Under the pieces are notes generated by a model. The model saw only the letters and a program-made list of their open reading frames with translations, did not search any database and was not told the origin of the DNA. A DNA stretch of 61,297 nucleotides, counting the filler. It is 6 parts of 6 records of this genome, joined end to end, with 100 filler letters (N's around TTAATTAATTAA, not from the genome) between each part and the next. Parts side by side here need not be neighbours in the genome. Positions count along the whole stretch, not along the records: positions 54,514 to 61,297 come from SRR31156797_24445; 5 more parts are not named here. One strand, given 5' to 3'. Made by a program: the position numbers and the translations under genes. Numbering within the stretch: the first letter of the stretch is position 1; the number at the start of each line of letters is the position of its first letter. Below, piece after piece: positions 45,200-61,297 of the stretch.

Positions 45200-45215
45200 A
45201 GCAAAAATGATGCCA
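45200..45215 (-). promoter_or_regulatory. sigma54 (-24/-12) promoter
   Basis: Minus strand TGGCATCATTTTTGCT; perfect palindrome CAATTTTATAAAATTG (45302-45317) upstream as candidate UAS. Confidence 0.7.
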
Positions 45216-45941: not shown

Positions 45942-46259
45942 TCAATCTTCTTCGTTTATTTCCAAAATTTCTTTAGGCTTTTTGGTTCGATAACCGGGTT
46001 TGACTAGAATTTCCAAATAAAAAGAATCGAGCTGTTTTGCTTCAGCCTCAGAGATGTGTTTGTTAATGGTGGATAGATGGATAACTTCACTCGTTGCTTC
46101 ATCAACGCCGAACCGGCAGTCAAAATCCCAAAAGTCGACACCCGAGGGGAGAGTCTTGTTGCGTTCTCTTTTTATATATTTTTTGACTTCATATTTAATG
46201 GCTTCAACGAGCCGTGGCAGTTTGAGCTTTGGGTGGGTCAGCTTAAATGTTTTTTTCAT
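45942..46259 (-). CDS. DUF6172-like protein
   Basis: MKKTFKL..KY.KRER.K.LP.GVDFWDFDCRFG...FYLEIL.KPG. Confidence 0.8.
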   Translation of the reverse strand: MKKTFKLTHPKLKLPRLVEAIKYEVKKYIKRERNKTLPSGVDFWDFDCRFGVDEATSEVIHLSTINKHISEAEAKQLDSFYLEILVKPGYRTKKPKEILEINEED

Positions 46260-46292
46260 AGTGATTCCAAAAGGTGTTTTTGTTCGTATTTA

Positions 46293-47108: not shown

Positions 47109-47563
47109 AGTTCGTTGTTTTCGTTCTCCGCATACATATCATCCCACCTATTTGCCCTGGTGTCCTGTCATCCATCAACTGTTGCTGAGAATTAGTTACA
47201 TAGGGATATTTTTCGTTCAAGGTTAAGGCAAGCGAAAAAATGATTATACAGGATGGCCTATAGCTGTTGAGTCTTATAGTATAATTATTGATAGACTTTT
47301 TACGAGTCCATCATGGTTTTTCGTTCAATATATAGCCGCCTCACTATCTTAGCTGGTTTGGAAATACAGGTGTGGAAGGCTCCAGTGTCCCGTCAGCGAT
47401 GTTCTGATGTATCTTGCTTGTCCCTTTTCGCACCTCTGGTTGCGAGGCATGAGTCACATGGAACCATTATGCACCACATGTCCAGCAGCCATAGATAAGA
47501 AAAATTACGGTCCAGTACATCGCTAGTTCATTGGTGATGTGACACTGGTCACAGCACGGGAGC

Positions 47564-48898
47564 GTGACGAAAATGATCGAGAACGTCATTATCATGGGAG
47601 CAGCTGGTCGGGATTTTCACAACTTCAATGTCTATTTTAAAGACAACCCACGCTATAGAGTCATTGCTATAACAGCAACCCAGATCCCGGATATAGCAGG
47701 ACGTGTTTATCCGTCGTCGTTGGCCGGTGATCTCTATCCCCAGGGTATTCCCATATATCATGAAAAAGAGCTGTGCAGATTGATCCGTCACCATGCCGTG
47801 GACCTGGTGGCATTTTCCTACAGTGATGTACGCCATACAGATATCATGCATATCGCATCCTCTGTGATGGCAGCAGGTGCGGATTTCACCTTAATCGGTG
47901 CGACCTATACCATGCTTCGTTCACGCAAACCTGTGGTGGCGATATGTGCTGTCCGGACCGGTTGCGGCAAATCGCAAACCACACGGCACGTATCCGCACT
48001 TTTGCAGGGTATGGAAAAAAAGGTGGTAGTGGTGCGTCACCCCATGCCTTATGGCAATTTAACCAGGCAGATGGTGCAGCGGTTTGCTTCGTATAAAGAT
48101 TTTAAAACCCATAACTGTACCATTGAAGAACGGGAGGAGTATGAACCGCTGGTAGACCAGGGGCTTGTTGTCTATGCAGGGGTGGACTATAAAAAAATTC
48201 TTTCTGCTGCCGAAGAGGAGGCGGACGTAGTGGTGTGGGACGGTGGAAACAATGATACGCCCTTTTTTTATCCGGACGTACATATCACCCTTTTTGACCC
48301 CCATCGGGCAGGGCATGAGCTTTTGTATTATCCTGGAGAAACAAATATGCTCATGGCCGATATCGCGATTATTAATAAGGTCGACAGTGCTCGCAGCGAT
48401 CAAATTGCGAAGGTGAAGGCTAATATAGAAAAGTTTGCTCCCCAGGCTGATATTGTCCTCGCTGAGTCTGCCCTAAAGGTTGAAGCGCCGGAAATAATCA
48501 GGGGTAAAAGGGTACTGGTTGTGGAAGACGGTCCCACTCTGACACATGGTGGAATGGAGTTTGGTGCGGGAGTATTGGCTGCAATGCGATTTAAGGCACG
48601 GGAATTGATCAACCCCAGGCCATATGCAGTGGGCAGTATCAGCGAAACTTATGAAAAATATCCGCACCTGCAGCGAGTGCTTCCAGCCATGGGGTATGGG
48701 AGGAGACAGATGGAAGACTTGGAGGCAACTATTAACCAGACGCCGTGTGACTTGGTTCTTTTTGCAACTCCCATTGATTTGCCTCACCTGCTCACTATTA
48801 CCAAGCCAACCTTGCGCATCCAGTATGCATATAAAGATCATGGAGAGCCAAGGTTGAAAACGGTTCTTGAACAACGGGTTCGCCTGTTGGCTGGGTAA
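47564..48898 (+). CDS. COG2403 P-loop protein (often annotated cyclic 2,3-diphosphoglycerate synthase/GTPase); probable arginine synthetase ArcE
   Basis: GAAGRDFHNFN, TQIPDI, AVRTGCGKSQ, RHPMPYG, TIEEREEYEP, WDGGNND, EDGPTLTHG. Confidence 0.75.
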   Translation: MTKMIENVIIMGAAGRDFHNFNVYFKDNPRYRVIAITATQIPDIAGRVYPSSLAGDLYPQGIPIYHEKELCRLIRHHAVDLVAFSYSDVRHTDIMHIASSVMAAGADFTLIGATYTMLRSRKPVVAICAVRTGCGKSQTTRHVSALLQGMEKKVVVVRHPMPYGNLTRQMVQRFASYKDFKTHNCTIEEREEYEPLVDQGLVVYAGVDYKKILSAAEEEADVVVWDGGNNDTPFFYPDVHITLFDPHRAGHELLYYPGETNMLMADIAIINKVDSARSDQIAKVKANIEKFAPQADIVLAESALKVEAPEIIRGKRVLVVEDGPTLTHGGMEFGAGVLAAMRFKARELINPRPYAVGSISETYEKYPHLQRVLPAMGYGRRQMEDLEATINQTPCDLVLFATPIDLPHLLTITKPTLRIQYAYKDHGEPRLKTVLEQRVRLLAG

Positions 48899-49149
48899 TT
48901 GGCTGATGAGGTGGTGCGTTGGGCTCTAAAATGGTGTTTCCCAGGTGCTCGTCTTTTTCAATCTTACCGAGATGTATGGTGTAAGCGATTACTGATGATA
49001 AGAGAGGTGAGAGTGGTTGCCGTTGTTAGACGCTCTAGAGATGATATCAGTGATTCTGCATTTAAGGAGCGATGCAAGGACGAAAGCCGGGAGGTGCCGG
49101 TGTTTGAATGTTGTATAATTATTCAGCAGCACCCCACGGAGTCTGCGCT

Positions 49150-49249
49150 NNNNNNNNNNNNNNNNNNNNNNNNNNNNNNNNNNNNNNNNNNNNTTAATTA
49201 ATTAANNNNNNNNNNNNNNNNNNNNNNNNNNNNNNNNNNNNNNNNNNNN
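49150..49249. other. artificial contig linker
   Basis: N-run with TTAATTAATTAA. Confidence 0.98.
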
Positions 49250-49671
49250 TGACCCGAATTGAGAGGATTATAGCGGTTCTCATCCAGATCCCGATCCATG
49301 TTCTTCTTGTAATCCATGAGCAGAACCATGGCGACCAGGTGCATCCCCCGGGAGAGGATCCTTTCGTCGCCGCCGCTGAAGTGGCAAAAGGGAATAAGGG
49401 GCCGCATGATATCCATATGCTCATTGGGCTGGTCGTTGTATACATCGTTGACCGGGCTGTCCTTGCTCAACAGAAAGAGGGACAGATTGGTAAAGCCGTC
49501 CTGAACGGGATTGTCCGTGGAGGCGATATGGGGAAGCATGCCTATAAGGCGGCAGAGACGGTGTTCCAGAATGATCTGTTTCTTCATTGCGAACTGAGGC
49601 ATCCCCATCAGGACCTCATCAACCAGAGACTCCCATATTTCAGGGGAATTAATAAATCGAGCTTCGTACAC
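49250..49671 (-). CDS. hypothetical protein (3' truncated)
   Basis: AGGAGAGG SD before GTG 49671; frame open to the contig end. Confidence 0.6.
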
Positions 49672-49896
49672 GTGATACCTCTCCTTTTCTCCAGATAAGC
49701 AGATTTTCACATCGAATATTGCTTTTGTATATCATCCAAAAGGATGATATTGATCATCATGGCCCTTTTTACGGCGTTTTTGACCTCATTTACGTCCTTT
49801 TTTATCTATAATAACTCTAATAATTGAGAAACCAGATCTCAAGCCGATTATTAACATATTTCTGTTAACGCCCGAGTGTCTGTAGGAGAGCCAAGG

Positions 49897-50376
49897 ATGA
49901 AGATAACCGTAATCAGCGTTGGAAAGCTGAAAGAGAAATACTGGAGGGGCGCCGTCGAGGAGTATGCGAAGAGGCTCTCCCGCTACGGAACCCTGAACCT
50001 GGTCGAAGTGGCCGACGAGAAATGCCCGGAAAACGCAAGCGAAGAGGACAGGAACATTGTCCGCAGAAAGGAGGGGGAAAGGATCGCGGCCAGGATCCCG
50101 GAAGGGGCCTTTCTGGTCACACTTGAGATAGGAGGGAAGGAGATGGGCTCAGAAGGCTTCGCCGCTTTTCTGGACGGCCTCCCCCACAAGGGACACTCCC
50201 ATGCCGTATTCGTCATCGGAGGCTCCCTGGGTCTGGAGCCGGGGCTCTGCCGAAAAAGCGGGCTCTCCCTCTCCTTCGGCCCCATGACCTTTCCCCATCA
50301 GATGATGAAGGCGATGCTGCTCGAACAGATCTATCGGGCCTTCCGGATCAACAGGAACGAGCCCTATCATAAATAA
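49897..50376 (+). CDS. rlmH: 23S rRNA pseudouridine-1915 N3-methyltransferase
   Basis: VGKLKEKY, FVIGGSLG, MTFPHQ, EQIYRA, PYHK. Confidence 0.96.
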   Translation: MKITVISVGKLKEKYWRGAVEEYAKRLSRYGTLNLVEVADEKCPENASEEDRNIVRRKEGERIAARIPEGAFLVTLEIGGKEMGSEGFAAFLDGLPHKGHSHAVFVIGGSLGLEPGLCRKSGLSLSFGPMTFPHQMMKAMLLEQIYRAFRINRNEPYHK

Positions 50377-50447
50377 GCGGGTTCTCACTCCCCAATGGGA
50401 AGAGGGTTCTTGAAGGAGAAGTCGCCGGATGTCAGGTACAGGACCGG

Positions 50448-51527
50448 TCAGAACAGGGATGTGATAGCGGGATTCCCCTTCAGTCCCGCAAGAAGGCGGG
50501 GGCTCTGCCCCTCGCCGTCCTTCGTATCCGGATTGGAGCCTCCCCCCAGAAGCAGACGGACGGCGTCGGACCGCTCCGCCTCCACCGCATAGTGAAGGGC
50601 CGTGCGGCCCCTTTCGTCCCGCACTTCGTCCCGGGCTCCCGCCCGGGCAAGCAGATTCAGGATCTCCCAGTTGCCCAGTCTGGCGGCGATGAGAAGCGGG
50701 GGATATCCCCTGGGATCGCTTGCCGAGAGATCCGCCCCCTGCTCCAGAAGCATGCGGCAGATATAGAACTGACCATTGAAAACGGCCTCCACGAGATCCC
50801 CTCCCGCCTGCCTGACGGGGGCGAAGCCCACGGTCAGATGGGCGCCGATCACCCGGTAACGCCACCGGGGCGCTTCTGCCCGGACCGCCGTTTTTTCCAG
50901 GGTGACCAGGGCGCAGCGCTTCTCATAGGGGCTGAGGACATGCCCTTTGAGTATCAGATCTTCCACGACCGGCTGCCCCGGTTTCGGGCTGTAGGAGTAG
51001 ACGGTTTTGGCGGTGTTGCCGTTCCGAAAGAGGTCGATATGGATCTTCTTCGTATACCCGCCCGGGTATTCGGCACTCTCTGATCGATCCATGGAATAGG
51101 TCATGCGATAGCTGTCGTCCCCCCTCTGGAAGATCTGCCCCCCCGCCGTGACGCGGTCAACCGTCTTGATACCGAAGCGGATCAGCTGGGAGTGCCATTC
51201 GGGATGAAGCTCCCAGAGTTCCGCCGGACTCTGATCGCTCAGCAGAACCGCCTCGGGACTGGCATAAAGGAGTTTGTCTTCGATAAGGTCCAGGATCTGC
51301 CACTGCCAGATCCGGCTGCCCCCTTTTCCGGACGAAACGGTACCGTAGGCGAACTCGCCTTTCGCCGTCCAGCCCAGCACATAGAGAGACATGCGATCGA
51401 AATCAAAGGCCTCCAGCCTCACAGGCCCCTTCCAGTTCCCCGCGCACAAAGGAAACGCCACCGCGAGAAAGGTGATCGTCAGGAGATAGAGAAAAGGGCC
51501 GGCGGGCTGTCTTGAACTTCTGAACAT
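50448..51527 (-). CDS. secreted protein with C-terminal ankyrin repeats
   Basis: Signal peptide; GYPPLLIAA, GRTALHYAV, GQSP repeats. Confidence 0.8.
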   Translation of the reverse strand: MFRSSRQPAGPFLYLLTITFLAVAFPLCAGNWKGPVRLEAFDFDRMSLYVLGWTAKGEFAYGTVSSGKGGSRIWQWQILDLIEDKLLYASPEAVLLSDQSPAELWELHPEWHSQLIRFGIKTVDRVTAGGQIFQRGDDSYRMTYSMDRSESAEYPGGYTKKIHIDLFRNGNTAKTVYSYSPKPGQPVVEDLILKGHVLSPYEKRCALVTLEKTAVRAEAPRWRYRVIGAHLTVGFAPVRQAGGDLVEAVFNGQFYICRMLLEQGADLSASDPRGYPPLLIAARLGNWEILNLLARAGARDEVRDERGRTALHYAVEAERSDAVRLLLGGGSNPDTKDGEGQSPRLLAGLKGNPAITSLF

Positions 51528-51583
51528 GTATTCCTAATATAGCAAAAGTATTATAAAAAAACAGCTCTATCGAGGTAAAGCCA

Positions 51584-52309
51584 ATGAATATGAACAGCAT
51601 TACAACCCTGGCCACTCTTGCGGTCATCGGGCTCAGTTACGTCCTTCCCCTTTTTCAGGAGCAGATCCGCTCGGTCGGATTCTTCGCCCTTTCCGGAGCC
51701 GTCACGAACTGGCTGGCCATCCACATGTTATTTGAAAGGGTGCCCGGCCTCTACGGATCGGGAGTCATCCCCCTCCATTTCGAGGATTTCAAGAAGGGGA
51801 TCCGGGACCTGATCATGAATCAGTTCTTCACTTTGGAGAACGTCTCCCGTCTGATGAAGGGGGAAACGGGCATTCTGACGGACCATCTGGATCTGAGCAA
51901 AGCGGCAGACGCGGTAAACTACGACAGGATCTTCGACGGACTGAGCGAAACGATCCTCGCCTCCTCCCTGGGGGGGATGCTCGGGATGTTCGGAGGAGCC
52001 TCGGTCATAGAGGGGTTCCGCGCCCCTTTCAAGGAGAAGACCAGAGACATCATCGTCGCCGAAGCTCAGAGCCCCGAATTCCTGAACAGCGTGTCCTCAT
52101 CCATGGGCGGCAATACGGACAAGGCGTCGGAGGATATTATCGAAAAGGTGGGAGCCATCGTCCAGCAGAGACTGGATGAACTCACGCCGCAGATGGTCAA
52201 AGAGATCATTCAGGCCATGATACGCAAACATCTTGGCTGGCTGGTGCTCTGGGGAGGGGTCTTCGGAGGCCTTATAGGACTGGTGATGAGCCTTATCCCC
52301 ATGATCTGA
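51584..52309 (+). CDS. DUF445 family membrane protein
   Basis: GAVTNWLAIHMLF..PGLYGSG; C-terminal HLGWLVLWGGVFGGLIG. Confidence 0.88.
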   Translation: MNMNSITTLATLAVIGLSYVLPLFQEQIRSVGFFALSGAVTNWLAIHMLFERVPGLYGSGVIPLHFEDFKKGIRDLIMNQFFTLENVSRLMKGETGILTDHLDLSKAADAVNYDRIFDGLSETILASSLGGMLGMFGGASVIEGFRAPFKEKTRDIIVAEAQSPEFLNSVSSSMGGNTDKASEDIIEKVGAIVQQRLDELTPQMVKEIIQAMIRKHLGWLVLWGGVFGGLIGLVMSLIPMI

Positions 52310-52451
52310 TCTCTGCGGACGGCTCGGTTCTGAGACGATATCACAACCGGGCCGCGGCGCTTCGTTCCTGCGGATCGCCTTTAAATATATAGGCCGGTAT
52401 TGCAATTTTTCCTTTACAAATAAGAATTTGGATGCGAGAATAATTTCGGGC

Positions 52452-52626
52452 AAAAAAAAAGCCCCTGAAGAAAAGGAGGAAACTTCAGGGACCCAAAAGC
52501 AAAATGGAAAAAAAGGTAATCAGTCTTTTCTTCCCATGAAGCCAGTTAACAACATGACTTCAACTATTCAAACTTCCGTTGAAGAAAAGGAGGAAAACTT
52601 CAACAGAAGCGCGTGACTTACATCAC
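52452..52626 (-). ncRNA. candidate small regulatory RNA (~175 nt) with two anti-SD (CCUCCU) loops
   Basis: Sigma70 promoter upstream, five hairpins, GC-rich terminal stem followed by T9, no credible ORF on this strand. Confidence 0.75.
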
Positions 52627-52632
52627 ATTTAA

Positions 52633-52661
52633 AATATAGTAATCTCATAATTAAAAGTCAA
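52633..52661 (-). promoter_or_regulatory. sigma70 promoter of the candidate sRNA
   Basis: TTGACT (52661-52656) - 17 nt - TATATT (52638-52633). Confidence 0.8.
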
Positions 52662-52754
52662 GCAAACTGTTTGACTTTTCTTTATGTGTCCTCAGCAAAA
52701 AGGCAAGTAACACATACCGCTTTGCTGATAGGGCCATACTAAATAGGCAAAGTT

Positions 52755-52787
52755 AAGATTTCGTGAAGATTTCATAAAGACTCTTCA
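52755..52787. promoter_or_regulatory. three tandem 11-bp direct repeats, candidate OmpR/PhoB-family binding site
   Basis: AAGATTTCGTG AAGATTTCATA AAGACTCTTCA. Confidence 0.5.
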
Positions 52788-52818
52788 TAGATCCTATCAA
52801 TATTTCAAGAATAAACGC

Positions 52819-54297
52819 TTACTTCCCTTTCTCCCTAGGGAATGCGGGGAAGCGGATCCGCATCAAAGCCCCGCCCTCAGCTCCTTCGCGGGCCTCCAGA
52901 CGCCCTCCCTGGTTGGCGATGAGAAGGCGGCTGATGGCCAGTCCCAGGCCGCTGCCCTCGCTGTTCCTGGACTTGTCCAGTTTGTAAAAACGGTCGAACA
53001 CCCTCTCCCTTTCTTCCGGGGGTATGCCGGGCCCCGTATCCTCCACCTCCAGAAACAGCCCCTCTTCATCGGCGTACTGGCGGATGGTGACCCGCCCTCC
53101 CGGAGGGGTGAATTTAAGAGCGTTTGCCAGAAGGTTCTTCAGGACCTGCCGGGTTTTGTTTCTGTCTCCCCGAAAGAGCGCTTCCCCTCCCAGGGAAAGG
53201 TCGAGGGCGATCCCCTTCCGTTCCGTAAGAACCGAGAAATCGCCGGCGATAAGCTCCGCCAGCTCCCGGAGAGAGAACTCCCGTTCCTCCGTATGTACCT
53301 GTCGGGACTCCTCGGCGGCGAGGGTTTGAAGGTCCCGTATCAGCCCGGCGAGCTGCTCGCTCTGACGGTAGAGGACTTCCATGCGCTTCCGGTCTGCCTC
53401 GTAGACGCCGTCCATGATCATCTCCAGGTTCCCCATGATCAGACTGACCGGGGTTCTCAGCTCATGGGCCGTATCCGATATAATCTGGCGTTTCCAGTTC
53501 TCCGAGGCCTCCAGAGAGGCGGCCATCTCGTTGAATCCCTCGGTGAGAAGGGTCAGATCGTCCTGTATGCCCGGAGTTGTACTGCCCGTCTCTATCCTAT
53601 AGGAGTACTCCCCTTCGCTGATGGTCATCACCCCTTTGTGAAGGCTCTTCAGGGGCCTCAGGGCCCGCCGGAGGAGGAGAGAGCCCAGAAGCATCGCCAG
53701 TAGTGCCGAAAGGAGGGATGAGATGAGTACGCCGCTGATGATGGGATAATGCTGAGGCTTGCCGTCCGGTCCTTCCTGAGGTCCCGTATACTCGCCGGCC
53801 AGCACATACCCGTCCACATGCCCGTCCCTGTAGAACGGAGCTCCCAGTTCAAGGATCTCCGGGGAGAGGCTCTTCAGCCTGCGGCCGGAGCTGTCGCGAA
53901 ACGTTCCCTGCAGGACGGCCCCGTGCTTGTCGCTGACGACGATGGGGATGGTCCTGTCCATGCCGGGCTCGGGGGGAGGAAGGGCATCGGTCCTGAGAGA
54001 GGGGGCGGACATCCTGCCCATCCTGCCCATCCCCATCCGGCCCGCTCCCTGCGCATTGCGGCCCTGCATACTTTCGTCATGCTTCATGGAGTGCAGGATC
54101 TGCTCGAGGCGCCCTTCCGAGGCGGCCATGCTGAGGGTGCGGGCGAAGGTGACAGCCGTATTCCTGTCCCGCTGCAGGGCGAGCCCCCGGAAGCGGCTGA
54201 CCGTCAGGGTTCCCACCAGCAGGATGGTCACCAGGGTACTGAAGAGGATGGAAAAGACCATGATGCCCACGAGCCGGGCAGTGAGTGAGATCTTCAT
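52819..54297 (-). CDS. membrane sensor histidine kinase (BaeS-like, HAMP)
   Basis: Two TM segments, Met/Gly-rich periplasmic loop, AHELRTP, NLLANA, DTGPG, GSGLGL. Confidence 0.93.
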   Translation of the reverse strand: MKISLTARLVGIMVFSILFSTLVTILLVGTLTVSRFRGLALQRDRNTAVTFARTLSMAASEGRLEQILHSMKHDESMQGRNAQGAGRMGMGRMGRMSAPSLRTDALPPPEPGMDRTIPIVVSDKHGAVLQGTFRDSSGRRLKSLSPEILELGAPFYRDGHVDGYVLAGEYTGPQEGPDGKPQHYPIISGVLISSLLSALLAMLLGSLLLRRALRPLKSLHKGVMTISEGEYSYRIETGSTTPGIQDDLTLLTEGFNEMAASLEASENWKRQIISDTAHELRTPVSLIMGNLEMIMDGVYEADRKRMEVLYRQSEQLAGLIRDLQTLAAEESRQVHTEEREFSLRELAELIAGDFSVLTERKGIALDLSLGGEALFRGDRNKTRQVLKNLLANALKFTPPGGRVTIRQYADEEGLFLEVEDTGPGIPPEERERVFDRFYKLDKSRNSEGSGLGLAISRLLIANQGGRLEAREGAEGGALMRIRFPAFPREKGK

Positions 54298-54413
54298 TCG
54301 CCTTCCCGCATCCTGTACCCCACCCCCCAGACCGTCTGGATATATTCGGGATGGGCCGGATCGGTCTCTATCAGCTTCCGGATATTCTTGATATGGACGT
54401 CGATGGAACGCTC
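54294..54413 (-). CDS. OmpR-family response regulator, C-terminal fragment
   Basis: ERSIDVHIKNIRK...IQTVWGVGYR; ATGA overlap with the kinase. Confidence 0.92.
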   Translation of the reverse strand, partial: ERSIDVHIKNIRKLIETDPAHPEYIQTVWGVGYRMREGE

Positions 54414-54513
54414 NNNNNNNNNNNNNNNNNNNNNNNNNNNNNNNNNNNNNNNNNNNNTTAATTAATTAANNNNNNNNNNNNNNNNNNNNNNNNNNNNNNN
54501 NNNNNNNNNNNNN
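54414..54513. other. artificial contig linker
   Basis: N-run with TTAATTAATTAA. Confidence 0.98.
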
Positions 54514-54515
54514 AT

Positions 54516-55163
54516 TCGGCCAGACCGAATCAGATCTCTGCAATGAAGGAAAAGCTTATTGCCTCTGGTGTCCGGGAAAGCAGGATTATTGAAACCAGTG
54601 ACTCTGAAGGGGGAGCTATCGGACTGGAGAAGATAGTTACCCTTACGGAGCAGTTATTACCGGATGCCAAGAGAGAAGCCTTCATGCTGAAACAGAAGAT
54701 CGATATAGCACGGAAGATCTTCTATATAAAGCAGAAATCGAATAAGGTCACTGCCCTTATCGCTACTGTAACTGCCGCTGCTGCTGCGACAGGAGCTTCT
54801 CCTATACCCTTTTCTGATGCTGCTATACTGATGCCCGTCCAAGCAGGTTTAATCGGAAGTATCGCAGCAATTTATGGGCTCCAGAAGGAAGCACTGTCAA
54901 GCGCATCTCTTCCTTTACTGGCACAAATCGCCGGAGTACAGGCTGCATCATCACTATCAAAGCTCATTCCGATTGCCGGTAATATCATTAGTGGAACTGT
55001 AGCCGCAACGATCACCGGAGCTCTCGGGGCTTATGTCAAAGGGCATTTCGAATCTATTGCTATCAAGAAAGCCAATGGGGAAGAGACTGGCTCGTTTGAC
55101 TTTTTTAACTTCGAGCTGTTCAAAGCCTTTTACGATAACTATAAGAAATCATCGTCTGATTAA
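54516..55163 (+). CDS. YcjF/DUF697 family protein, probably GTPase-fused (5' truncated)
   Basis: ASPIPFSDAAIL.PVQ..L...IA.IYG, LSKLIP.AG; frame open from the contig start. Confidence 0.8.
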   Translation, partial: SARPNQISAMKEKLIASGVRESRIIETSDSEGGAIGLEKIVTLTEQLLPDAKREAFMLKQKIDIARKIFYIKQKSNKVTALIATVTAAAAATGASPIPFSDAAILMPVQAGLIGSIAAIYGLQKEALSSASLPLLAQIAGVQAASSLSKLIPIAGNIISGTVAATITGALGAYVKGHFESIAIKKANGEETGSFDFFNFELFKAFYDNYKKSSSD

Positions 55164-55180
55164 TAAGATTGCTGAAAAGC

Positions 55181-55231
55181 TGAACGCACTCCCTCCCTTA
55201 CTACTTCACAGAAGGAAAGGGAGCGCATTCA
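55181..55231. terminator. imperfect hairpin between convergent genes
   Basis: TGAACGCACTCCCT...AGGGAGCGCATTCA. Confidence 0.45.
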
Positions 55232-55235
55232 GTCA

Positions 55236-55415
55236 TTAGCTACCACTGACAGTTTGTTCTTTCGATTTCATCCATTCACCGATCTTCTTACTATCGAAAC
55301 GGATTGCAGATTCAAACTTATAGTATGGAATCTTATTCAGACTAATAAGCTTATGTATCATCGAATTAGACAGGCCAGTGATTTCCATCACTTGTTTAAC
55401 ATTTATCATACTCAC
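55236..55415 (-). CDS. excisionase-like HTH_17 DNA-binding protein
   Basis: AGGAGG SD; INVKQVMEITGLS..IHKL...IPYYK..AIRFD...EW. Confidence 0.8.
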   Translation of the reverse strand: MSMINVKQVMEITGLSNSMIHKLISLNKIPYYKFESAIRFDSKKIGEWMKSKEQTVSGS

Positions 55416-55458
55416 AATCTGTACACCTCCTATCATTATTATGTTAGGAAGTTTTCGA

Positions 55459-55770
55459 TTAAGAGACATTCTGATATCTTTTAATCTGGTTTAACTCAGC
55501 AGTTAAGCTTTCGATCAAGAATTGCTGTTGTATGATCGTGATTCTGGTTTCTGTATTAAGATCTATTACGGGAGACTTAGTCTTTCTACTATAAACATAA
55601 TAAGCTGTATCATCAGAAAAGAATCTACGTCGCCAGTAATATAATAGATTTGGATGAATATTATATTTTAATGCTATCTTCTTAATATCACCATACTTTG
55701 TATTATTGTATGATTCTAGAACGATATCTCTCTTCTGTAATGGGGTGTATCTATTGTTTTTCTTTTTCAT
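55459..55770 (-). CDS. HTH protein resembling IS3/IS66 OrfA (HTH_Tnp_1), with C-terminal coiled coil
   Basis: RYT..QKRDIV...IALKYNIHPNLLYYWRRRF; GAGGAG SD. Confidence 0.6.
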   Translation of the reverse strand: MKKKNNRYTPLQKRDIVLESYNNTKYGDIKKIALKYNIHPNLLYYWRRRFFSDDTAYYVYSRKTKSPVIDLNTETRITIIQQQFLIESLTAELNQIKRYQNVS

Positions 55771-55816
55771 ACTTTATATCTCCTCTTGAATAATATAATT
55801 TTTAGTACTCTTTATA

Positions 55817-56602
55817 CTAAAGAAGAGTACCGGTCATAATCGCCATCAATTCAACCTGGTTTAGGAAGTTCTTATATAAATCAGTTGGGATTTCGTTTTG
55901 GATTCGTATGAGAGTAAGTAAAGGAACGAGATTTCTAATCAGAGTTTCTTCTGTTTGATACAAGAATAAACAGTTTAGAAGACTTCTATCCTGTGAATTA
56001 TTGATTTGACAGATACGATATTTGCGAAGTCTGAACTCGCTTCTTATAATATCATCTGTTGCTTTCGGTTTAATGATTCCTTCATCCAAGTATTTTATAC
56101 TTTTGTTGTATAAACAAAACTCAGATTTTTTAATTTGTTTTACTATCTCTTCCCTTGAGTAGTAAGTGTTCTTTTCTTTCCGAAAAACAGCAGGGATTAA
56201 CGCTTTATCGTTAATCCTTCTTTTAGGAACATCAAATGCAATTTCAATTTCATAGAGGTTCAATATATGAACAATATCGAAATAATTTTTCAGAGTATTA
56301 AGATGAAACTCTGAGAAGAATCCTTCATTCAGCAGTAGAAACACTGCACTTATGATGTCCTGTATAACAAGATTATTAGGATTCAAGTGTTGATTGTGGA
56401 TGTGAATCTGATAAAAATAATATTTAGTTTCATTTTTATCTATAAATAACTTATTAACTGTTACCGACTTCATCTTTGACCTTTCGAACTTTGGGTTCAC
56501 AAAACTTCGGTGTACTAACAATGTGACCTTATCAATCGATTTGTTGGGCTGCTGAAACGTTCGGTTAAATGACCATGCTTTGGGGATAAATTTTTTTTCC
56601 AT
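55817..56602 (-). CDS. putative Rep_trans/gpII-like replication initiator or MOB_T-like relaxase
   Basis: EIEIAFD, NTYYS, FCLYNKS, IRSEFRL follow the order of the RxDxAxD / TxYxG / xYxK / RxExR motifs; AAGGAG SD. Confidence 0.55.
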   Translation of the reverse strand: MEKKFIPKAWSFNRTFQQPNKSIDKVTLLVHRSFVNPKFERSKMKSVTVNKLFIDKNETKYYFYQIHIHNQHLNPNNLVIQDIISAVFLLLNEGFFSEFHLNTLKNYFDIVHILNLYEIEIAFDVPKRRINDKALIPAVFRKEKNTYYSREEIVKQIKKSEFCLYNKSIKYLDEGIIKPKATDDIIRSEFRLRKYRICQINNSQDRSLLNCLFLYQTEETLIRNLVPLLTLIRIQNEIPTDLYKNFLNQVELMAIMTGTLL

Positions 56603-56786
56603 TTATCTCTCCTTTCTAAAATAATTTATTTCAATGTAGGAGAGTTTTTATTTTTTAATATTGTGTGGCCATGATAGGAACTATGTCCCATATGGCATTG
56701 ATCAATGACATCGGATATGAATGACATATGCATATAAAAAAATAGAACTTCAGACATTCCAACAGAAATGTTGGAGGTGACTTAAT

Positions 56787-57905
56787 ATGTCAAAGAAAAA
56801 ACCGTATTGCCTTTTTCAAAAGAAGCTAGCCAATGGACAGAAAATCTACTACTACACGGCCTATGATACGCAGGGAAAGCGAAGACAGGTATCAACTGGA
56901 TGTAAAGATCAGTTAGATGCAATACAGATATGCCTTAAAAGGCTAGAGGAAGGGAAACTAATTCCGGGAGATAGGATTGTCTTTAAAAATTATGTCAAAA
57001 ACTGGTTTACTGAGGACTGCCCTTATTATACTCCCCGGATTGAAAGAGGGAACAGCTATTCAAAAAGCTGTATAGAGCGAAATCAGAAGATCCTAGAAAT
57101 GCATATTCTTCCTGTTTTTGGAGAAATGAGAATGGATCGAATCCAAACAGGAGATGTAGAAGACTGGCTCTTAAGATTCAAAAAATCCGGTTACGCTCAT
57201 AACTCAATAAATCAGTTTAGGGGGATCTTGAGACTTATCTTCAATGAGGCGATCCGTTGCGGCATTATTAGCCGGAATCCAGTACTGAATGTTCTACCTT
57301 ATGCCAGAAACGCAAAAGAAAGAGGGATTTTAACCCATGAGGAATGCCAGACTCTTTTTGACAGAAACCGCATTGATAAGATTTGGAAAGGTCGGGAGCT
57401 GCACTACTTAATCAATTACACAGCGTACCTTACTGGAATGCGTATGGGGGAAGTTCTCGCTTTAACAGAAGATGATATACATAATAACTATATACAGATT
57501 CGGCATTCCTGGGATCGGAAATACGGCCTAAAATCAACTAAGAGCGGGAAAGAGCGGTATGCCCCTGTTCCTGTAAACCTAGTAAAACTTCTTCATGAAT
57601 ATGTAGAGAATGTACAGGGGCGATTTCTTTTCATGGCAAAACATCCTTTTAAGCCTGTAGACCATAAATCAGTTCAGAATCATTTTGCATTTGCCCTGGA
57701 AGCGATAGGAATAGATGATAGTCAGCGACGGGAGAGGGCCATATCTTTTCACAGCTGGCGTCATACGGCAAATACCAGGATGAAGGAAGCAGGAGTTCCA
57801 GAGGCTGTTGTGCGAGCTGTTATTGGTCATTCTTCAGCAGAGGTATCGGAAGTTTATACTCATATTGATCCTAGGAAAATTGACTTAAATTGGGAAGTTG
57901 TTTAG
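56787..57905 (+). CDS. int: tyrosine integrase
   Basis: N-terminal arm-binding and SAM-like domains; TGMRMGE, TKS, HSWRH, IGHSS, VYTH catalytic residues. Confidence 0.95.
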   Translation: MSKKKPYCLFQKKLANGQKIYYYTAYDTQGKRRQVSTGCKDQLDAIQICLKRLEEGKLIPGDRIVFKNYVKNWFTEDCPYYTPRIERGNSYSKSCIERNQKILEMHILPVFGEMRMDRIQTGDVEDWLLRFKKSGYAHNSINQFRGILRLIFNEAIRCGIISRNPVLNVLPYARNAKERGILTHEECQTLFDRNRIDKIWKGRELHYLINYTAYLTGMRMGEVLALTEDDIHNNYIQIRHSWDRKYGLKSTKSGKERYAPVPVNLVKLLHEYVENVQGRFLFMAKHPFKPVDHKSVQNHFAFALEAIGIDDSQRRERAISFHSWRHTANTRMKEAGVPEAVVRAVIGHSSAEVSEVYTHIDPRKIDLNWEVV

Positions 57906-59415
57906 AAGTACGTTTCACTAGAACCCTCCTCCTACCTTGTACCTGACCATTTTGATCTGTGAACATACAAAGAATCTGAGGCGCATTTTCAAGTTGGAAT
58001 TTATTGACAATAGTTAAAGTATCCTTTTTTTCGGTAGGCCTTGAATTATAGCTATAAGGATGATCTATCCAAAGAGTAACTTTATCCTCTATGGAAGAGC
58101 AACAACCGTTGAAGAAAATCTTATTAAATAGTGTCTCTTTGTTCCTTTGCGTTTTAAGAAGACTATCTTCTATGGACTCCGATGCATGGAGAGAATAGAC
58201 AAAAACTTTCTTTTTCTGTCCAGGTCTCCAGCATCGGGCAATAGCTTGATTTCTAACTTGTGGATTCCACCATGAGTCAATAAAAATTATGTGGTTTGCA
58301 CAGGTTAGATCAATGCCCAAACTGGTTGCCATTTTACTTGCCAAAAGAATCGGAATGTTACAGCTCTGAAATTGATTAAGGATTTTCACTCTTTCTGATA
58401 ATGTGAGCGAACCATCATAGAAAATTGAATTGAGGTTGTGGATACTTTCCTTTGAAAGAAAATATCGTAACTGTTTAAGAGATTTTGTATAATTCGAAAA
58501 AAGTACAATCTTATCCTCGGGATAACTTTCCCTTATCTTTGAAATAAGAGATACAACTGGTTCTACTTTCCTTCGGTTTAGTTCGACCATTTTACTGACA
58601 ATACTGGTGGAATTGATTTCATCGTCGCGAAATAACAAATCATACATTGTGTTCAATGTCTTAGAGTCAATAAGATCAGAATCTGGTCCAAGGCGATATA
58701 TATTCTGTTCAATTGGCAAATTACAATACTGATCAAACACTGAGTCTCTTCTTATACTGATCATGTATGGCGATATTGATTTTATTATCTCACCTACCCT
58801 ATCGTTAGATAGATTTTCAATACTCTGATTCCATTCAAATATTTTTTTGTCAAGTTTATTAGGAGCCAAGAAGTTCAACTGTGAGTACAGCTCCATTAGA
58901 TTATTTTCCAGTGGAGTTGCCGAAAGTAGGAGACGACGCTTTGATTGAAGTTTCATAATAGATTCAGAAAAACTTGTCACCGGATTTTTTATCCGGTGAC
59001 TTTCATCCAGAACAATGCCATCAAATTCTCTTGAACTGAGATACTCTATCTGATTTACCATCATTTCATACGTAATAATTAGGATATTATTAGCCCCACC
59101 AAGTCTGCGCCGCTTCACTTCATCATTGAATTCAGCTGTAAAGACTTCATATTTCAAACTCGTCAACTCTTTTATTTTAGCTGTCCAAACTGAGTGAACC
59201 GTACTCTTTGGTGTCACTATCAGAAAGTTCTTTCCTTCTTGCTTATTAACAATACCCACCATCCATGCTAGGGCAATATAGGTTTTACCCATTCCCATTT
59301 CAAGATTGAGTAATACACCGCTTTGATTTTCATATCCCATCCGATTGGCATCAGTCAGAATCTCTTGTTGGTAGCTGTGTAGCGTTGCTTTGAACTTTGA
59401 AGAACTTTGCTGCAT
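57871..59415 (-). CDS. minimal SNF2-family ATPase/helicase
   Basis: LHSYQ, EMGMGKT, LIVTPKS, DESHRIKN, SATPLENNL.EL, GIDLT.AN, WWNP...QA.AR..R.GQ. Confidence 0.92.
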   Translation of the reverse strand: MQQSSSKFKATLHSYQQEILTDANRMGYENQSGVLLNLEMGMGKTYIALAWMVGIVNKQEGKNFLIVTPKSTVHSVWTAKIKELTSLKYEVFTAEFNDEVKRRRLGGANNILIITYEMMVNQIEYLSSREFDGIVLDESHRIKNPVTSFSESIMKLQSKRRLLLSATPLENNLMELYSQLNFLAPNKLDKKIFEWNQSIENLSNDRVGEIIKSISPYMISIRRDSVFDQYCNLPIEQNIYRLGPDSDLIDSKTLNTMYDLLFRDDEINSTSIVSKMVELNRRKVEPVVSLISKIRESYPEDKIVLFSNYTKSLKQLRYFLSKESIHNLNSIFYDGSLTLSERVKILNQFQSCNIPILLASKMATSLGIDLTCANHIIFIDSWWNPQVRNQAIARCWRPGQKKKVFVYSLHASESIEDSLLKTQRNKETLFNKIFFNGCCSSIEDKVTLWIDHPYSYNSRPTEKKDTLTIVNKFQLENAPQILCMFTDQNGQVQGRRRVLVKRTSKQLPNLSQFS

Positions 59416-59433
59416 GGTCTATAAAAACTCCTA

Positions 59434-60879
59434 TCAAAGACCAATAGACTTTGGGTCATATTGGATAGAGATGTAGTCGCAAAGATTGGAAATCTTATTT
59501 GTGAGGACAACAATATCATTGCGATGTCTATTAATATCTAGGAACTGCCCATTCTCATAACCTGTATCTGACTCTTCAGTGAATCCCTCTACAAAAACTA
59601 ATATTCCTATTTCTATACTTTCAGCGATGAGTCGCTTCATGGACTTTTCTGAGATCAAGTATTTTTCGTAGCATTCATGATCCTTGATAATAAATTTTAG
59701 AATTGTCTTCAAACTATCTTGGTTATTCTTGAAGCAGTCGTATATAACTGACTCAACTTGGTTCTCCCCTCTGTACATTCGATTCACGTACCCTTTGTAC
59801 GAGACTAGCATATTCCTGAGAAGAAACCAAATAAAGTAGAGCTCAAGCCATTGCATGGGAGAACTTGGAATTTCCTTATCTATATCTCTCCCGCTAAATA
59901 CTTCATTATATTCTTCAAAAGTTTGGCATGGCTTCCCTAAATAATCATAAAAAGACTTTATTCCATTCTCCCGATTTTTTTTAAAATGATTAAATGAATA
60001 ATGAGATCTTTTCTTAAGTTCTTTGAAATAGTTAAATTTCGGATTATAATATCTAAAAAAGAGAGCCATTTGCTGTTTGTGAATATCAAAGTTGTTGTCG
60101 CTATCTTTCATTCCAAAGAAATCTAGCTTCAATATTGTTTGATCATATTCTTTACTGGTAAGAAAAAAGGGGATATTGATATAATACAGATTGGAGAGGT
60201 CAACACTATTTATCTCATTAAACGTTTCTCTCCAGTAACAGTCAATAAATGACTTAAACCTAAGGTCTTCAACTTGTGGATATCCCTCTTTTAAGATAGG
60301 CACAGAGAAGCCATTTGGAAATTGTATGAAGGCTTTTTTATCTTTGTTATACAAAGAGCTTAGTCTTTTCCCCATCCTATCAAGTAGATCCTTCTGAGCT
60401 GGCTTCTCAAACAGCTCTTTACCAAAGTCAGTGTATAGATTTAGAAACGGCCAAAGAATCTCTGTAATCTTCACTGGAAACTGAATTGAACGGGTACGCG
60501 TCTTCGGAAGACTTTTTTGAATCATACTGATCTGTTCATTCTGTTTTCCAAGTATTCTGATGACGTTATTCAATTTGGGCTTGAGCTCATCAAAATGAGC
60601 AATTTCTTCCATTTCCACATACAACTCAGAAGAATCAAAGAAGGCCTTTTTGTTAGTTCCCAGGACCTGAAGCAGCCTTTCTAAGCGGCTAGAGTTCTTT
60701 GACAGGAAGAAACCTTTTCCATCTCTTTCTGTACGCAACAGCAGTTGAGCCAAGTTGTTGACACTCAAAGAATCTTCTCCGAGCCGATTAAACTCTTCAA
60801 CAACTTTCTTATGTCCACCGTAATTCTTGATAAGAGTCCTCAATTTTGCTCCATAAACGGTTGCTACTTCTATTTCCAT
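59434..60879 (-). CDS. hypothetical 481-aa protein with possible N-terminal XRE-like HTH and coiled coil
   Basis: Long AT-rich ORF; 18-nt gap containing the AGGAG SD of the SNF2 gene. Confidence 0.75.
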   Translation of the reverse strand: MEIEVATVYGAKLRTLIKNYGGHKKVVEEFNRLGEDSLSVNNLAQLLLRTERDGKGFFLSKNSSRLERLLQVLGTNKKAFFDSSELYVEMEEIAHFDELKPKLNNVIRILGKQNEQISMIQKSLPKTRTRSIQFPVKITEILWPFLNLYTDFGKELFEKPAQKDLLDRMGKRLSSLYNKDKKAFIQFPNGFSVPILKEGYPQVEDLRFKSFIDCYWRETFNEINSVDLSNLYYINIPFFLTSKEYDQTILKLDFFGMKDSDNNFDIHKQQMALFFRYYNPKFNYFKELKKRSHYSFNHFKKNRENGIKSFYDYLGKPCQTFEEYNEVFSGRDIDKEIPSSPMQWLELYFIWFLLRNMLVSYKGYVNRMYRGENQVESVIYDCFKNNQDSLKTILKFIIKDHECYEKYLISEKSMKRLIAESIEIGILVFVEGFTEESDTGYENGQFLDINRHRNDIVVLTNKISNLCDYISIQYDPKSIGL

Positions 60880-61267
60880 TACATGAATATAGTCAATTTA
60901 TAGTTTTTATTCAGCATATATGATGTAAAATATGACATATATTACATTTTATTACACTTTACTGAAGCTAGTAGTTCTATTGCACGCTGATAAATATTCT
61001 ATAAATCAATATCTCTCGCGCAATTCCTAGAAACCAATGAAGTTCTTACTTAACCTACGTATTTTCATTACAATATCCAAGCATACAGATTACGGAAGAT
61101 AACAAACCTGCATCGAATATTACCACTGTAAACAGAATGTCAACAGTTTAAGGGATTTTTTAGCCAACTAGAAGAGAAATCCGCCTTGACAGGAAAATTG
61201 TTATTTTGTTATTATACAAATAGTTAGACACGATTCAACGCAGATTAGTAGAATGTTATTCCCTCCG

Positions 61268-61297
61268 CTGGGGGACATGGGGTCGGTGGTTCAAATC
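61268..61297 (+). repeat. 3' half of tRNA-Pro(GGG) from the anticodon loop onward (att site), cut by the contig end
   Basis: CTGGGGG-ACATG-GGGTC-GGTGG-TTCAAAT-C; the upstream bases CCTCCG cannot pair with ACATG, so the 5' half is absent. Confidence 0.8.

What the first reader, a model, noticed from the sequence alone, without database searches (positions are those of the whole stretch)
57871..60879. Candidate novel two-gene defence system: HTH-unknown protein plus minimal SNF2 ATPase
Seen: a tightly coupled, AT-rich operon that is the only cargo between integrase and att. The 514-aa SNF2 has all helicase motifs (with variants NLEMGMGKT, SAT, QAIARCWR) but none of the SWIM, PLD or nuclease domains common in bacterial SNF2s. 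The 481-aa partner has a possible XRE-like HTH, a coiled coil and about 350 aa I cannot assign. Its helicase 3' end overlaps the integrase 3' end by 35 nt. Established: SNF2-type ATPases occur in anti-phage systems (DISARM DrmD, Zorya ZorD), and small integrative elements are defence hotspots. Inference: an undescribed sensor/effector pair; a transcription-remodelling role for the element is the alternative.
Basis: partly seen in the sequence, partly recalled or inferred. Interest (0 to 1): 0.75.

Follow-up and report, generated by a model that had tools for sequence, protein, structure and literature searches.

The report
Orphan protein paired with minimal Snf2 ATPase
A small integrase-bearing mobile element, probably from a marine spirochaete, carries a tightly linked gene pair, a protein with no detectable relatives plus a stripped-down Snf2 DNA motor; phage defence is the leading guess for its job, but sequence alone cannot settle it.

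Summary
Both genes are real, intact and tightly coupled. The spacer is 18 nt and holds AGGAG. The 3' ends of the SNF2 gene and the integrase gene overlap by 35 nt. The 514-aa protein is a genuine Snf2-fold ATPase with intact motifs and no accessory domain. It sits on an isolated long branch (at most 33% identity to anything found).

The 481-aa partner is a true orphan: no hit among 1.84 billion representative proteins, nor in Pfam, PHROGs, NCBIfam, PADLOC or PDB. Its HTH and coiled coil remain unconfirmed.

Two premises fail. The window is six contigs joined by N linkers, so the GC step at 54.4 kb is an artefact. No att site is found: the contig ends in a multi-copy 30-mer, not a recognisable tRNA.

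Stand-alone "minimal" Snf2 proteins are common in phage replication modules, so the architecture is not unusual in itself.

A roughly 95% identical copy of the locus occurs in an independent mangrove metagenome. Its only indel across the gene junction lies in the spacer.

Defence is plausible (about 0.35) but untested. Co-occurrence analysis is impossible because the partner has no distant homologues. Rival readings are an element replication or recombination helper and a split SWIM-SNF2-type regulator.

The parts
59434..60879 (-). P481: 481-aa orphan protein, first gene of the pair. Possible N-terminal HTH (unconfirmed); the rest is mostly helical and unassigned.
   Evidence: ORF; chance of an open frame about 4e-15. 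0 homologues. No family. AF2 pLDDT 33. Atlas leads to HTH_3 clusters at 0.76-0.78.
59416..59433 (-). 18-nt spacer with AGGAG ribosome-binding site for the SNF2 gene.
   Evidence: Sequence. The only indel of the mangrove relative over 59009-59952 is 1 nt at 59422, inside this spacer.
57871..59415 (-). 514-aa minimal Snf2-family ATPase: core at residues 10-435, unassigned tail at 438-514.
   Evidence: Pfam; phrog_62 at 2e-73; invariant motif residues; AF2 pLDDT 78; Foldseek to Chd1/CSB/ISWI/INO80.
57871..57905 (.). 35-nt convergent overlap of the SNF2 and integrase 3' ends.
60918..60952 (.). Imperfect palindrome (17-nt arms, 14/17 complementary, 1-nt centre) 39-73 nt upstream of the P481 start. 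Candidate operator.
   Evidence: 7 of 500 mononucleotide shuffles of 60880-61210 reach 14/17. The operator function is inferred.
61116..61143 (-). Promoter-like site (TTGACA, 16 nt, AATATT) facing the operon.
   Evidence: This is a consensus match only: 21 sites were found against 21.6 expected in the contig.
56787..57905 (+). 372-aa tyrosine integrase.
   Evidence: PF00589 at 4.5e-22; phrog_1 at 1.5e-55. Homologues at 94%, 63% and 57% identity; 6 of 6 organism-named rows are Spirochaetota.
55817..56602 (-). 261-aa protein, divergent from the integrase. Possible rolling-circle Rep/relaxase-like initiator (a lead only).
   Evidence: Atlas score 0.96 to clusters carrying PF05144 (18% of members) or PF02486 (32%). 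Pfam and PDB give nothing.
55459..55770 (-). 103-aa HTH_Tnp_1-type DNA-binding protein.
   Evidence: PF01527 at 1.2e-6.
55236..55469 (-). 77-aa excisionase/AlpA-like HTH protein.
   Evidence: PF12728 at 2.1e-6, PF05930 at 8.8e-5; phrog_66.
54516..55163 (+). 5'-open ORF with a weak DUF697 match. Flank or further cargo; cut by the contig piece.
   Evidence: The source contig runs 2206 nt further left.
61268..61297 (+). Multi-copy 30-nt word at the contig and window end. Looks like a T-arm but is not called as a tRNA.
   Evidence: Depth 677-1350 against 62, with other left contexts in X1 and X2. No tRNA or Rfam hit.
54414..54513 (.). Artificial contig joint (N44, 12-nt all-frame stop linker, N44).

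Best explanation
The two genes form one operon carried as accessory cargo by a small integrase-bearing element of a probable spirochaete. P481 is the specificity subunit. It may bind DNA through a divergent N-terminal helix-turn-helix, and it may autoregulate at the 60918-60952 palindrome. It recruits or gates the minimal Snf2 motor, which has no targeting domain of its own. The motor translocates on double-stranded DNA using ATP. The most likely purpose is conflict: interference with incoming phage or a rival mobile element. This would work by stripping or blocking proteins on foreign DNA, or by feeding DNA to an effector hidden in the unassigned 390 aa of P481.

Shown: the operon structure, an intact Snf2 fold and motifs, the orphan status of the partner, its mobile-element neighbourhood, and conservation in a second sample.

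Inferred: binding of the two proteins, DNA binding by P481, and the defence role.
For: - Tight coupling and a shared strand.
- An intact catalytic core and an Snf2 fold.
- The core scores best against Snf2 components of known defence systems in PADLOC: DpdE 5e-49, ZorD 1e-47, DrmD 7e-24. These are core-only matches.
- The partner is an orphan, as fast-evolving conflict genes often are. That generalisation is recalled knowledge, not from a call.
- The pair lies among integrase, excisionase-like and Rep-like genes.
- An integrase of the same family (31% identity) in another Spirochaetota genome (L044) is likewise followed by a convergent, divergent Snf2 gene (764 aa, unknown 250-aa N-terminus). 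That locus sits beside a type I restriction R subunit.
- Of the 12 other integrase loci scanned, 2 (L046, L057) carry clear PADLOC-type defence genes on the element side.
- A copy 92-96% identical in nucleotides in an independent mangrove metagenome keeps both genes. Its only indel over 59009-59952 falls in the spacer.
Against: - No nuclease, methylase or other effector domain is detectable in either protein.
- No known system matches.
- No distant homologues exist, so there is no co-occurrence or defence-island statistic.
- The best profile match of the motor is a phage 'DNA helicase' family (phrog_62, 2e-73).
- Stand-alone Snf2 proteins sit in phage replication modules.
- 9 of the 12 scanned integrase loci showed no PADLOC hit, and one more (L053) only a weak CARF hit.
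- The HTH is unconfirmed.
- The 'cargo slot next to att' is not established.
Confidence: 0.35

Rival explanations
1. The pair serves the element itself. The Snf2 motor and its partner help replication, recombination, excision or maintenance of the integrative element, as stand-alone Snf2 'helicases' are thought to do in phage replication modules.
For: - The best family match is phrog_62, 'DNA helicase', in the nucleotide-metabolism category (2e-73).
- 245 of 619 matching phage records cover at least 80% of the query.
- Javan626 places a 441-aa Snf2 after DNA polymerase I and primase. Dp-1 gp61 lies near DnaC, DnaB and DnaG.
- BFVD lists many phage Snf2 proteins of 405-580 aa.
- The element has a possible rolling-circle initiator but no other helicase on the 6.8 kb seen.
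- In the FastTree tree the protein falls, with weak support (77), on the side of the short stand-alone proteins.
Against: - Identity to stand-alone phage proteins is only 24-25%, at 85-105 bits. This is lower than to the SWIM-type proteins at 135-167 bits.
- No primase, polymerase or nuclease partner is present.
- None of the 13 related integrase loci carries a relative of P481 or of the other backbone genes. Only L044 has any Snf2 gene, so the pair is not a conserved backbone function.
- Snf2 enzymes are translocases rather than unwinding helicases. This is established knowledge, recalled and not from a call.
Confidence: 0.25
2. The pair is a split, extremely diverged version of the large bacterial SWIM / SNF2_assoc / SNF2 proteins (pilus-regulating Snf2, SCO1167 type). 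P481 would stand in for their 450-630-aa N-terminal region, acting in transcription or nucleoprotein remodelling.
For: - The highest-scoring cores are of this type: 27-30% identity at 135-167 bits by blastp, and up to 33% in the six-frame search.
- Their N-terminal regions (about 440-730 aa) are similar in size to P481.
- The NCBIfam top hits are SCO1167 (1.7e-41) and pilus_reg_Snf2 (4.3e-41).
Against: - hhalign of P481 against an 18-sequence alignment of those N-terminal regions gives probability 0.4%.
- Pfam finds no SWIM or PF08455 domain in P481.
- NCBIfam scores are about a tenth of the cut-offs.
- The tree does not place the motor inside that group.
Confidence: 0.15
3. The pair is a decaying or functionless remnant on a degraded element.
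For: - The partner is an orphan.
- The motor sits on a long branch (end branch 1.69).
- No att site or element ends are defined.
Against: - Both frames are intact over 481 and 514 codons.
- All catalytic residues are kept.
- A second sample keeps the genes at 92-96% identity, with no listed indel in the coding parts that are covered.
Confidence: 0.05

Closest known systems
Stand-alone phage Snf2 'DNA helicases' (phrog_62; e.g. Streptococcus phage Javan626 helicase, Dp-1 gp61, Gordonia phage gp57)
   Same: Domain content and size are alike: an Snf2 core only, 405-580 aa, with no accessory domain.
   Different: Identity is only 24-25%. Those genes sit among polymerase, primase and DnaB/DnaC genes, not behind an orphan 481-aa gene beside an integrase.
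Bacterial SWIM / SNF2_assoc (PF08455) / SNF2 proteins (NCBIfam pilus_reg_Snf2 NF053675, SCO1167 NF058637)
   Same: These give the best pairwise core similarity: 27-30% by blastp, 135-167 bits. The summed length of the pair (995 aa) resembles their 930-1200 aa.
   Different: Neither window protein has a SWIM or SNF2_assoc domain. The profile comparison with P481 is negative. Scores are far below the family cut-offs.
Snf2 components of defence systems: Zorya ZorD, DISARM DrmD, Dpd DpdE, BREX type 3 BrxHII, Hma HmaA, lactococcal AbiR (AbiRc)
   Same: All use an Snf2-type ATPase core, and PADLOC core matches run from 5e-49 down to 1e-12. AbiR also pairs the motor with DNA-binding proteins (passages of PMC13064643).
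   Different: - Those motors are 750-1300 aa and carry nuclease, TUDOR or other domains. They work with further system genes (abstract of PMC11232893; passages of PMC12839542).
- Here the motor is bare, no companion gene of those systems is present, and the matches cover only the helicase core.
Hachiman (HamA + HamB)
   Same: It is a two-gene unit, a non-ATPase partner plus an SF2 helicase, in which the helicase senses and the partner acts (abstract of bioRxiv 10.1101/2024.02.29.582594, seen in the listing).
   Different: HamB is described as a helicase of another SF2 type (recalled, not from a call). No PADLOC Hachiman model matched either protein among the rows shown. The likeness is of layout only.

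Membership tests
Snf2 family ATPase (SF2) | SNF2-related N-lobe plus Helicase_C lobe above the Pfam gathering scores | tested here: met
   PF00176 at 123.3 bits (cut-off 24.9); PF00271 at 75.2 bits (cut-off 23.5).
Snf2 family ATPase (SF2) | Catalytic motifs I, II and VI intact | tested here: met
   G43, K44, D137, E138, Q390 and R394 are invariant, and R397, G399 and Q400 are nearly invariant, across 59 sequences.
Snf2 family ATPase (SF2) | Snf2-type two-lobe fold | tested here: met
   AF2 pLDDT 78. Foldseek matches Chd1, CSB, ISWI and INO80 at E 1e-29 to 1e-31, TMq about 0.70.
Zorya ZorD | Full-length match above the NCBIfam cut-off, including the nuclease part | tested here: not met
   NF041790 scores 93.4 bits against a cut-off of 1500. 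The best stretch matches only model positions 905-1033 of 1035. The PADLOC ZorD matches shown cover Snf2-core positions only.
Zorya ZorD | ZorA, ZorB and ZorC genes alongside | tested here: not met
   None of the 7 contig proteins hits these models. The contig is incomplete on the left.
DISARM DrmD | Match above cut-off, with DrmA, DrmB, DrmC or a methylase nearby | tested here: not met
   NF038318 scores 83.2 bits against 950; NF038317 scores 63.2 against 610. No other Drm hits on the contig.
Dpd system DpdE | Match above cut-off within a dpd cluster | tested here: not met
   NF041062 scores 21 bits against 500. PADLOC DpdE matches the core only.
SWIM / SNF2_assoc / SNF2 proteins | PF08455 and/or a SWIM domain N-terminal to the core, in cis or in the upstream gene | tested here: not met
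   No such Pfam hit in either protein. hhalign of P481 against alignment A2 gives probability 0.4%.
XRE-type HTH (PF01381) in P481 | Profile match to an HTH family | tested here: not met
   No HTH family at E<=10 on residues 1-95 or on the whole protein. There are only Atlas leads at 0.76-0.78, below the tool's 0.9 mark. The fold is not testable because pLDDT is 33.
tRNA-targeting integrative element | tRNA or tmRNA gene, or its 3' fragment, at an element end, with a direct repeat at the other end | tested here: inconclusive
   - No tRNA, no Rfam hit and no att-like repeat.
- 5 of 13 related integrase loci have a tRNA or tmRNA directly upstream of the integrase. Here that position is taken by the divergent 261-aa gene.
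- Both contig ends are assembly breaks.
Known anti-phage system (any PADLOC model) for P481 | Match to a PADLOC-DB v2 model | tested here: not met
   0 families at E<=0.01.

The most novel reading that the evidence does not exclude
An orphan protein with no relatives in current databases, plus a bare Snf2 dsDNA translocase, make up a previously undescribed two-gene immunity module. It would be carried by small spirochaete integrative elements. The orphan subunit would supply both target recognition and the still-hidden effector activity.
Probability: 0.3. Interest if true: 0.7.

Novelty: new variant of a known kind. Interest (0 to 1): 0.45.

Why it matters
If the pair defends its host, it would show that an Snf2 motor stripped of every accessory domain can be armed by a separate, unrelated subunit. 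It would also add a protein fold or family with no known relatives to the defence repertoire of a poorly studied phylum.

If instead it serves the element, it would be a rare case of a non-phage integrative element using an Snf2 remodeller for its own propagation.

Either way the practical value is limited for now. The family has effectively one member, so only an experiment or a structure can decide.

Tried and rejected
- **Fold of P481.** AF2 folding without an alignment gave pLDDT 33 and pTM 0.19, which is unusable. No fold search was run on it.
- **Complex prediction.** It is neither support for binding nor evidence against it.
- **RNA evidence.** No RNA holder was listed among the sequencing runs, so nothing can be said on expression.
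- **Homologues of P481.** None were found in any of the following:
  - the word-indexed search, 0 of 6530 candidates;
  - exhaustive phmmer;
  - tblastn against phages at E<=1 and plasmids at E<=1;
  - Metagenome contigs and viral contigs;
  - one Treponema genome;
  - PDB. The best PDB hit was AcrIIA4 at E 0.1, which is chance level.
- **Closer relatives of the SNF2, integrase or 261-aa gene.** Pattern scans found none in viral contigs or metagenome contigs. Genome contigs gave a single locus at 24% identity.
- **Whole-contig megablast.** No match against plasmids or phages.
- **Split-gene idea.** The profile comparison was negative.
- **Phylogenetic placement of the motor.** The IQ-TREE quick run did not finish. 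FastTree leaves it on a long, unresolved branch with no starred clade holding it.
- **att site.** The repeat scan, ARAGORN and Rfam were all negative. I could not fit a tRNA cloverleaf to the last 80 nt by hand (sequences).
- **Promoter and terminator scan.** It found no more sites than the shuffles did.
- **Selection analysis of the pair against the mangrove relative.** Not possible. Only the first 40 of 344 differences were printed, and all of them lie left of 55344.
- **Literature.** Three searches turned up no description of an HTH-plus-bare-Snf2 two-gene system. Only listings, one abstract and 'SNF2' passages of three papers were read. Supplementary tables of defence-system surveys were not examined and could hold such a candidate.


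Full report
**What is there.**

The finding lies on the last of six contigs that were joined into this window by N44 / 12-nt stop linker / N44 spacers. The pieces are 1-22957, 23058-28538, 28639-34659, 34760-49149, 49250-54413 and 54514-61297, with GC from 0.31 to 0.56. The sharp GC drop at about 54.4 kb is therefore an assembly joint, not an island border. No whole genome is held for the window.

On the 6784-nt piece the ORFs are:
- a 5'-open ORF with a weak DUF697 match (54516-55163, +);
- a leftward operon of a 77-aa excisionase/AlpA-like HTH, a 103-aa HTH_Tnp_1 protein and a 261-aa protein (55236-56602, -);
- a 372-aa tyrosine integrase (56787-57905, +);
- the pair itself: a 481-aa protein (59434-60879, -) followed by a 514-aa SNF2 protein (57871-59415, -).

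**Check of the observation.**

The coordinates, lengths and strands are right. The spacer is 18 nt and holds AGGAG 12 nt before the SNF2 ATG. The stop of the SNF2 gene lies 35 nt inside the integrase gene. In this base composition an open frame of 481 codons has a chance of about 4e-15.

The SNF2 protein matches PF00176 (1.3e-35) and Helicase_C (5.9e-21), with no SWIM, PLD or nuclease family. The motif residues G43, K44, D137, E138, Q390 and R394 are invariant in a 59-sequence alignment. An AlphaFold2 model built on that alignment is confident over residues 10-435 (mean pLDDT 78). It is poor over the last 77 residues. Its best PDB matches are the motors of Chd1, CSB, ISWI and INO80 (E 1e-29 to 1e-31, TMq about 0.70). 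So it is a genuine, apparently active Snf2-type double-strand DNA translocase with an unassigned tail.

**What did not hold.**

(i) *'Only cargo between integrase and att'.* No tRNA or tmRNA is called anywhere in the window. Rfam finds nothing on the contig at E<=1. No att-like direct repeat exists inside the contig.

The last 30 nt (61268-61297) look like a T-arm. In the likely source run, however, this word has depth 677-1350 against 62 for the contig. It occurs with other left-hand contexts in two samples, and it is exactly where the assembled contig ends. It is a multi-copy repeat that broke the assembly, and its nature is unresolved.

In 5 of 13 loci with related integrases a tRNA or tmRNA lies directly upstream of the integrase gene. 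Here that place is occupied by the divergent 261-aa gene. The source contig also runs 2206 nt further left than the window piece. The element's ends, and hence what counts as cargo, are unknown.

(ii) *The HTH and coiled coil of the 481-aa protein.* Pfam finds no HTH, even when residues 1-95 are scanned alone at E<=10. The only hints are language-model neighbours that are HTH_3 clusters at 0.76-0.78, below the tool's 0.9 mark. There is also a four-helix pattern in a model with pLDDT 33.

(iii) *'Minimal' is not unusual.* Of 619 phage records with a match, 245 cover at least 80% of the query. Annotated examples are stand-alone proteins of 441-545 aa lying in or near replication genes. The viral structure library lists many phage Snf2 proteins of 405-580 aa.

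**How isolated the two proteins are.**

The 481-aa protein has no detectable relative. The negative searches are:
- 0 of 6530 word-sharing candidates;
- 0 hits in an exhaustive phmmer scan of 1.84 billion representatives;
- nothing in PHROGs, NCBIfam or PADLOC;
- nothing in PDB;
- nothing in phage or plasmid six-frame searches;
- nothing in the metagenome and viral contig scans.

The SNF2 protein is itself an outlier. Its best database relatives are 25-27% identical. The best of 401 Spirochaetota genomes reach 33% over the core, almost always inside ORFs of 930-1200 aa.

Those large proteins carry SWIM and/or the 'bacterial SNF2 helicase associated' domain PF08455 ahead of the core. They score well on the pilus-regulating-Snf2 and SCO1167 NCBIfam models. 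Their N-terminal regions are about the size of the 481-aa protein, which suggested a split gene. A profile comparison with an 18-sequence alignment of those regions gives probability 0.4%.

In a FastTree tree of 81 cores the window protein is a long branch (1.69) with no supported clade around it. The more careful IQ-TREE run did not finish.

**Independent occurrence.**

The locus is complete in one run that is probably its own source. About a fifth of its sampled words are held by a mangrove metagenome from another study.

Laid on the contig, the mangrove contigs cover 54517-59952 and 60560-60992 in the same order. The listed pieces are 88-96% identical overall, and 92-96% over the two genes of the pair. 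Across the gene junction (59009-59952, 45 substitutions) the single indel is 1 nt at 59422, inside the spacer.

The middle of the 481-aa gene (about 59953-60559) is not covered by the listed pieces, so full-length conservation is not shown. Of the 34 printed differences in the DUF697 ORF, 27 fall on third codon positions (my count). The differences inside the pair were not printed.

The integrase has a 94%-identical relative on a 2.8-kb metagenome contig and others at 63% and 57%. All 6 organism-named rows among the 120 listed are Spirochaetota. 46 of 401 Spirochaetota genomes have a match at E<=1e-30. A spirochaete host is therefore likely.

**Context in related elements.**

None of 13 loci with related integrases (30-40% identity) contains a relative of the 481-aa protein, the excisionase-like, HTH or 261-aa genes, or the DUF697 ORF.

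One of them (L044) has the same layout: an integrase followed by a convergent, very divergent Snf2 gene (764 aa, unknown 250-aa N-terminus) and a small upstream ORF. A type I restriction R subunit and a YgjP-like gene lie on the other side of the integrase. Its N-terminus shows no similarity to the 481-aa protein.

I then scanned 64 of the 116 ORFs of at least 110 aa from the other 12 loci, choosing those on the element side of each integrase, against PADLOC:
- two loci carry clear defence genes. L046 has a NERD/UvrD-like helicase. L057 has PDC-S06 (3e-245), AbiLi-like and HEC-01B proteins and a type IIG fragment;
- one locus has a weak CARF hit;
- nine have nothing.

Integrases of this family thus sometimes carry defence cargo, but not as a rule.

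**Most likely mechanism.**

The motor has no targeting domain and is translationally coupled to a protein of its own size. The simplest reading is a two-subunit machine in which the orphan protein supplies specificity, and possibly the effector, and the Snf2 subunit supplies ATP-driven translocation on duplex DNA.

Three things favour a conflict (defence) role: the mobile-element setting, the orphan status of the partner, and the L044 parallel. I put this at 0.35.

An imperfect palindrome (17-nt arms, 14/17 complementary) lies 39-73 nt upstream of the first gene. It is reached by 7 of 500 shuffles. It is a candidate operator if the N-terminus really binds DNA.

Binding between the two proteins, DNA binding by the 481-aa protein and the defence role are all inferences. 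The complex prediction gave no verdict.

**Rivals.**
- A helper of the element's own replication or recombination (0.25). It is supported by the phrog_62 match (2e-73) and the phage contexts. It is weakened by the lack of any companion replication gene and by the pair's absence from related elements.
- A split, diverged SWIM-SNF2-type regulator (0.15). It is supported by core similarity and contradicted by the profile comparison.
- A decaying remnant (0.05). It is contradicted by the intact frames and motifs.
- The remaining probability is unassigned.

**Comparison with known systems.**

It works most like the Snf2-containing defence systems: ZorD, DrmD, DpdE, BrxHII, HmaA and AbiR. It is a member of none of them. 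All NCBIfam scores are about a tenth or less of their cut-offs. PADLOC matches cover the helicase core only. No companion genes are present.

The described motors carry nuclease or other domains. HmaA is described in the abstract of PMC11232893. BrxHII and the BR helicases appear in passages of PMC12839542. AbiRc appears in passages of PMC13064643.

Three literature searches found no description of a bare Snf2 plus HTH-like orphan pair. Supplementary tables were not examined.

**Verdict.**

This is a real and well-delimited gene pair with a truly orphan partner and a divergent but ordinary-looking Snf2 motor. The defence idea is reasonable and unrefuted. However, two of its props (the att-flanked cargo slot and the unusual minimal architecture) fall away. 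With effectively one family member, no comparative test is possible.

Interest 0.45. Novelty: a new variant of a known kind (an Snf2-based accessory module).

Noticed in passing
window 22958-23057, 28539-28638, 34660-34759, 49150-49249, 54414-54513: Five identical N44 / 12-nt all-frame-stop linker / N44 joints. The window is six unrelated-looking contigs (GC 0.31-0.56), so any feature spanning a joint is artificial.
   Followed up: yes
window 61268-61297: A 30-nt word with a T-arm-like ending. Its depth is 10-20 times that of the contig, and other left contexts occur in two samples. A strong promoter-like site (TTGACA, 18 nt, TATTAT) lies about 55 nt upstream at 61186-61215. It is not called as a tRNA, tmRNA or any Rfam family, and its nature is unknown.
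   Followed up: partly
window 55817-56602 (-): The 261-aa protein has no Pfam, PHROG or PDB match. Its language-model neighbours (score 0.96) are clusters partly carrying Phage_CRI (18%) or Rep_trans (32%). It may be a rolling-circle initiator or relaxase, which would make the element IME-like.
   Followed up: partly
window 56692-56711: A 20-nt palindrome centred on TTGATCAA in the 184-nt gap between the divergent 261-aa gene and the integrase. Short pieces of a marine metagenome also match 56587-56662, with indels.
   Followed up: no
window 55154-55235: In the mangrove relative this 82-nt intergenic stretch, between the DUF697 ORF and the excisionase-like gene, is replaced by 85 unlike letters, while both flanks stay 94-96% identical. 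It may be an element boundary or a variable regulatory region.
   Followed up: no
window 54516-55163 (+): The 5'-open DUF697-like ORF has weak PADLOC hits to candidate systems PDC-S29 (5.6e-5) and PDC-S30. 27 of 34 printed differences to the mangrove relative are at third codon positions.
   Followed up: partly
L044 (G201:C6) 275-7578: Type I restriction R subunit, YgjP-like peptidase, a related integrase, then a convergent 764-aa Snf2 protein with an unknown 250-aa N-terminus and a 126-aa ORF. This is the only other integrase-plus-convergent-Snf2 layout found.
   Followed up: partly
L057 (G226:C72) 1-5435: A dense defence cluster next to a related integrase: a type IIG RM fragment, an AbiLi-like ATPase, HEC-01B-like, and PDC-S06 (3e-245).
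   Followed up: no
window 60595-60879 (-), residues 39-93 of the 481-aa protein: The best PDB sequence hit of the N-terminal 95 aa is the anti-CRISPR AcrIIA4 (E 0.1, 16 bits, 55 aligned residues). This is chance level and is recorded only as a curiosity.
   Followed up: no
window 50448-51527 (-) and 38211-39437 (+): On other contigs of the window: an ankyrin-repeat protein (Ank_2 5e-15), and a group-1 glycosyltransferase that also matches the 'GT4 in conflict systems' family PF20706 (1.6e-11).
   Followed up: no
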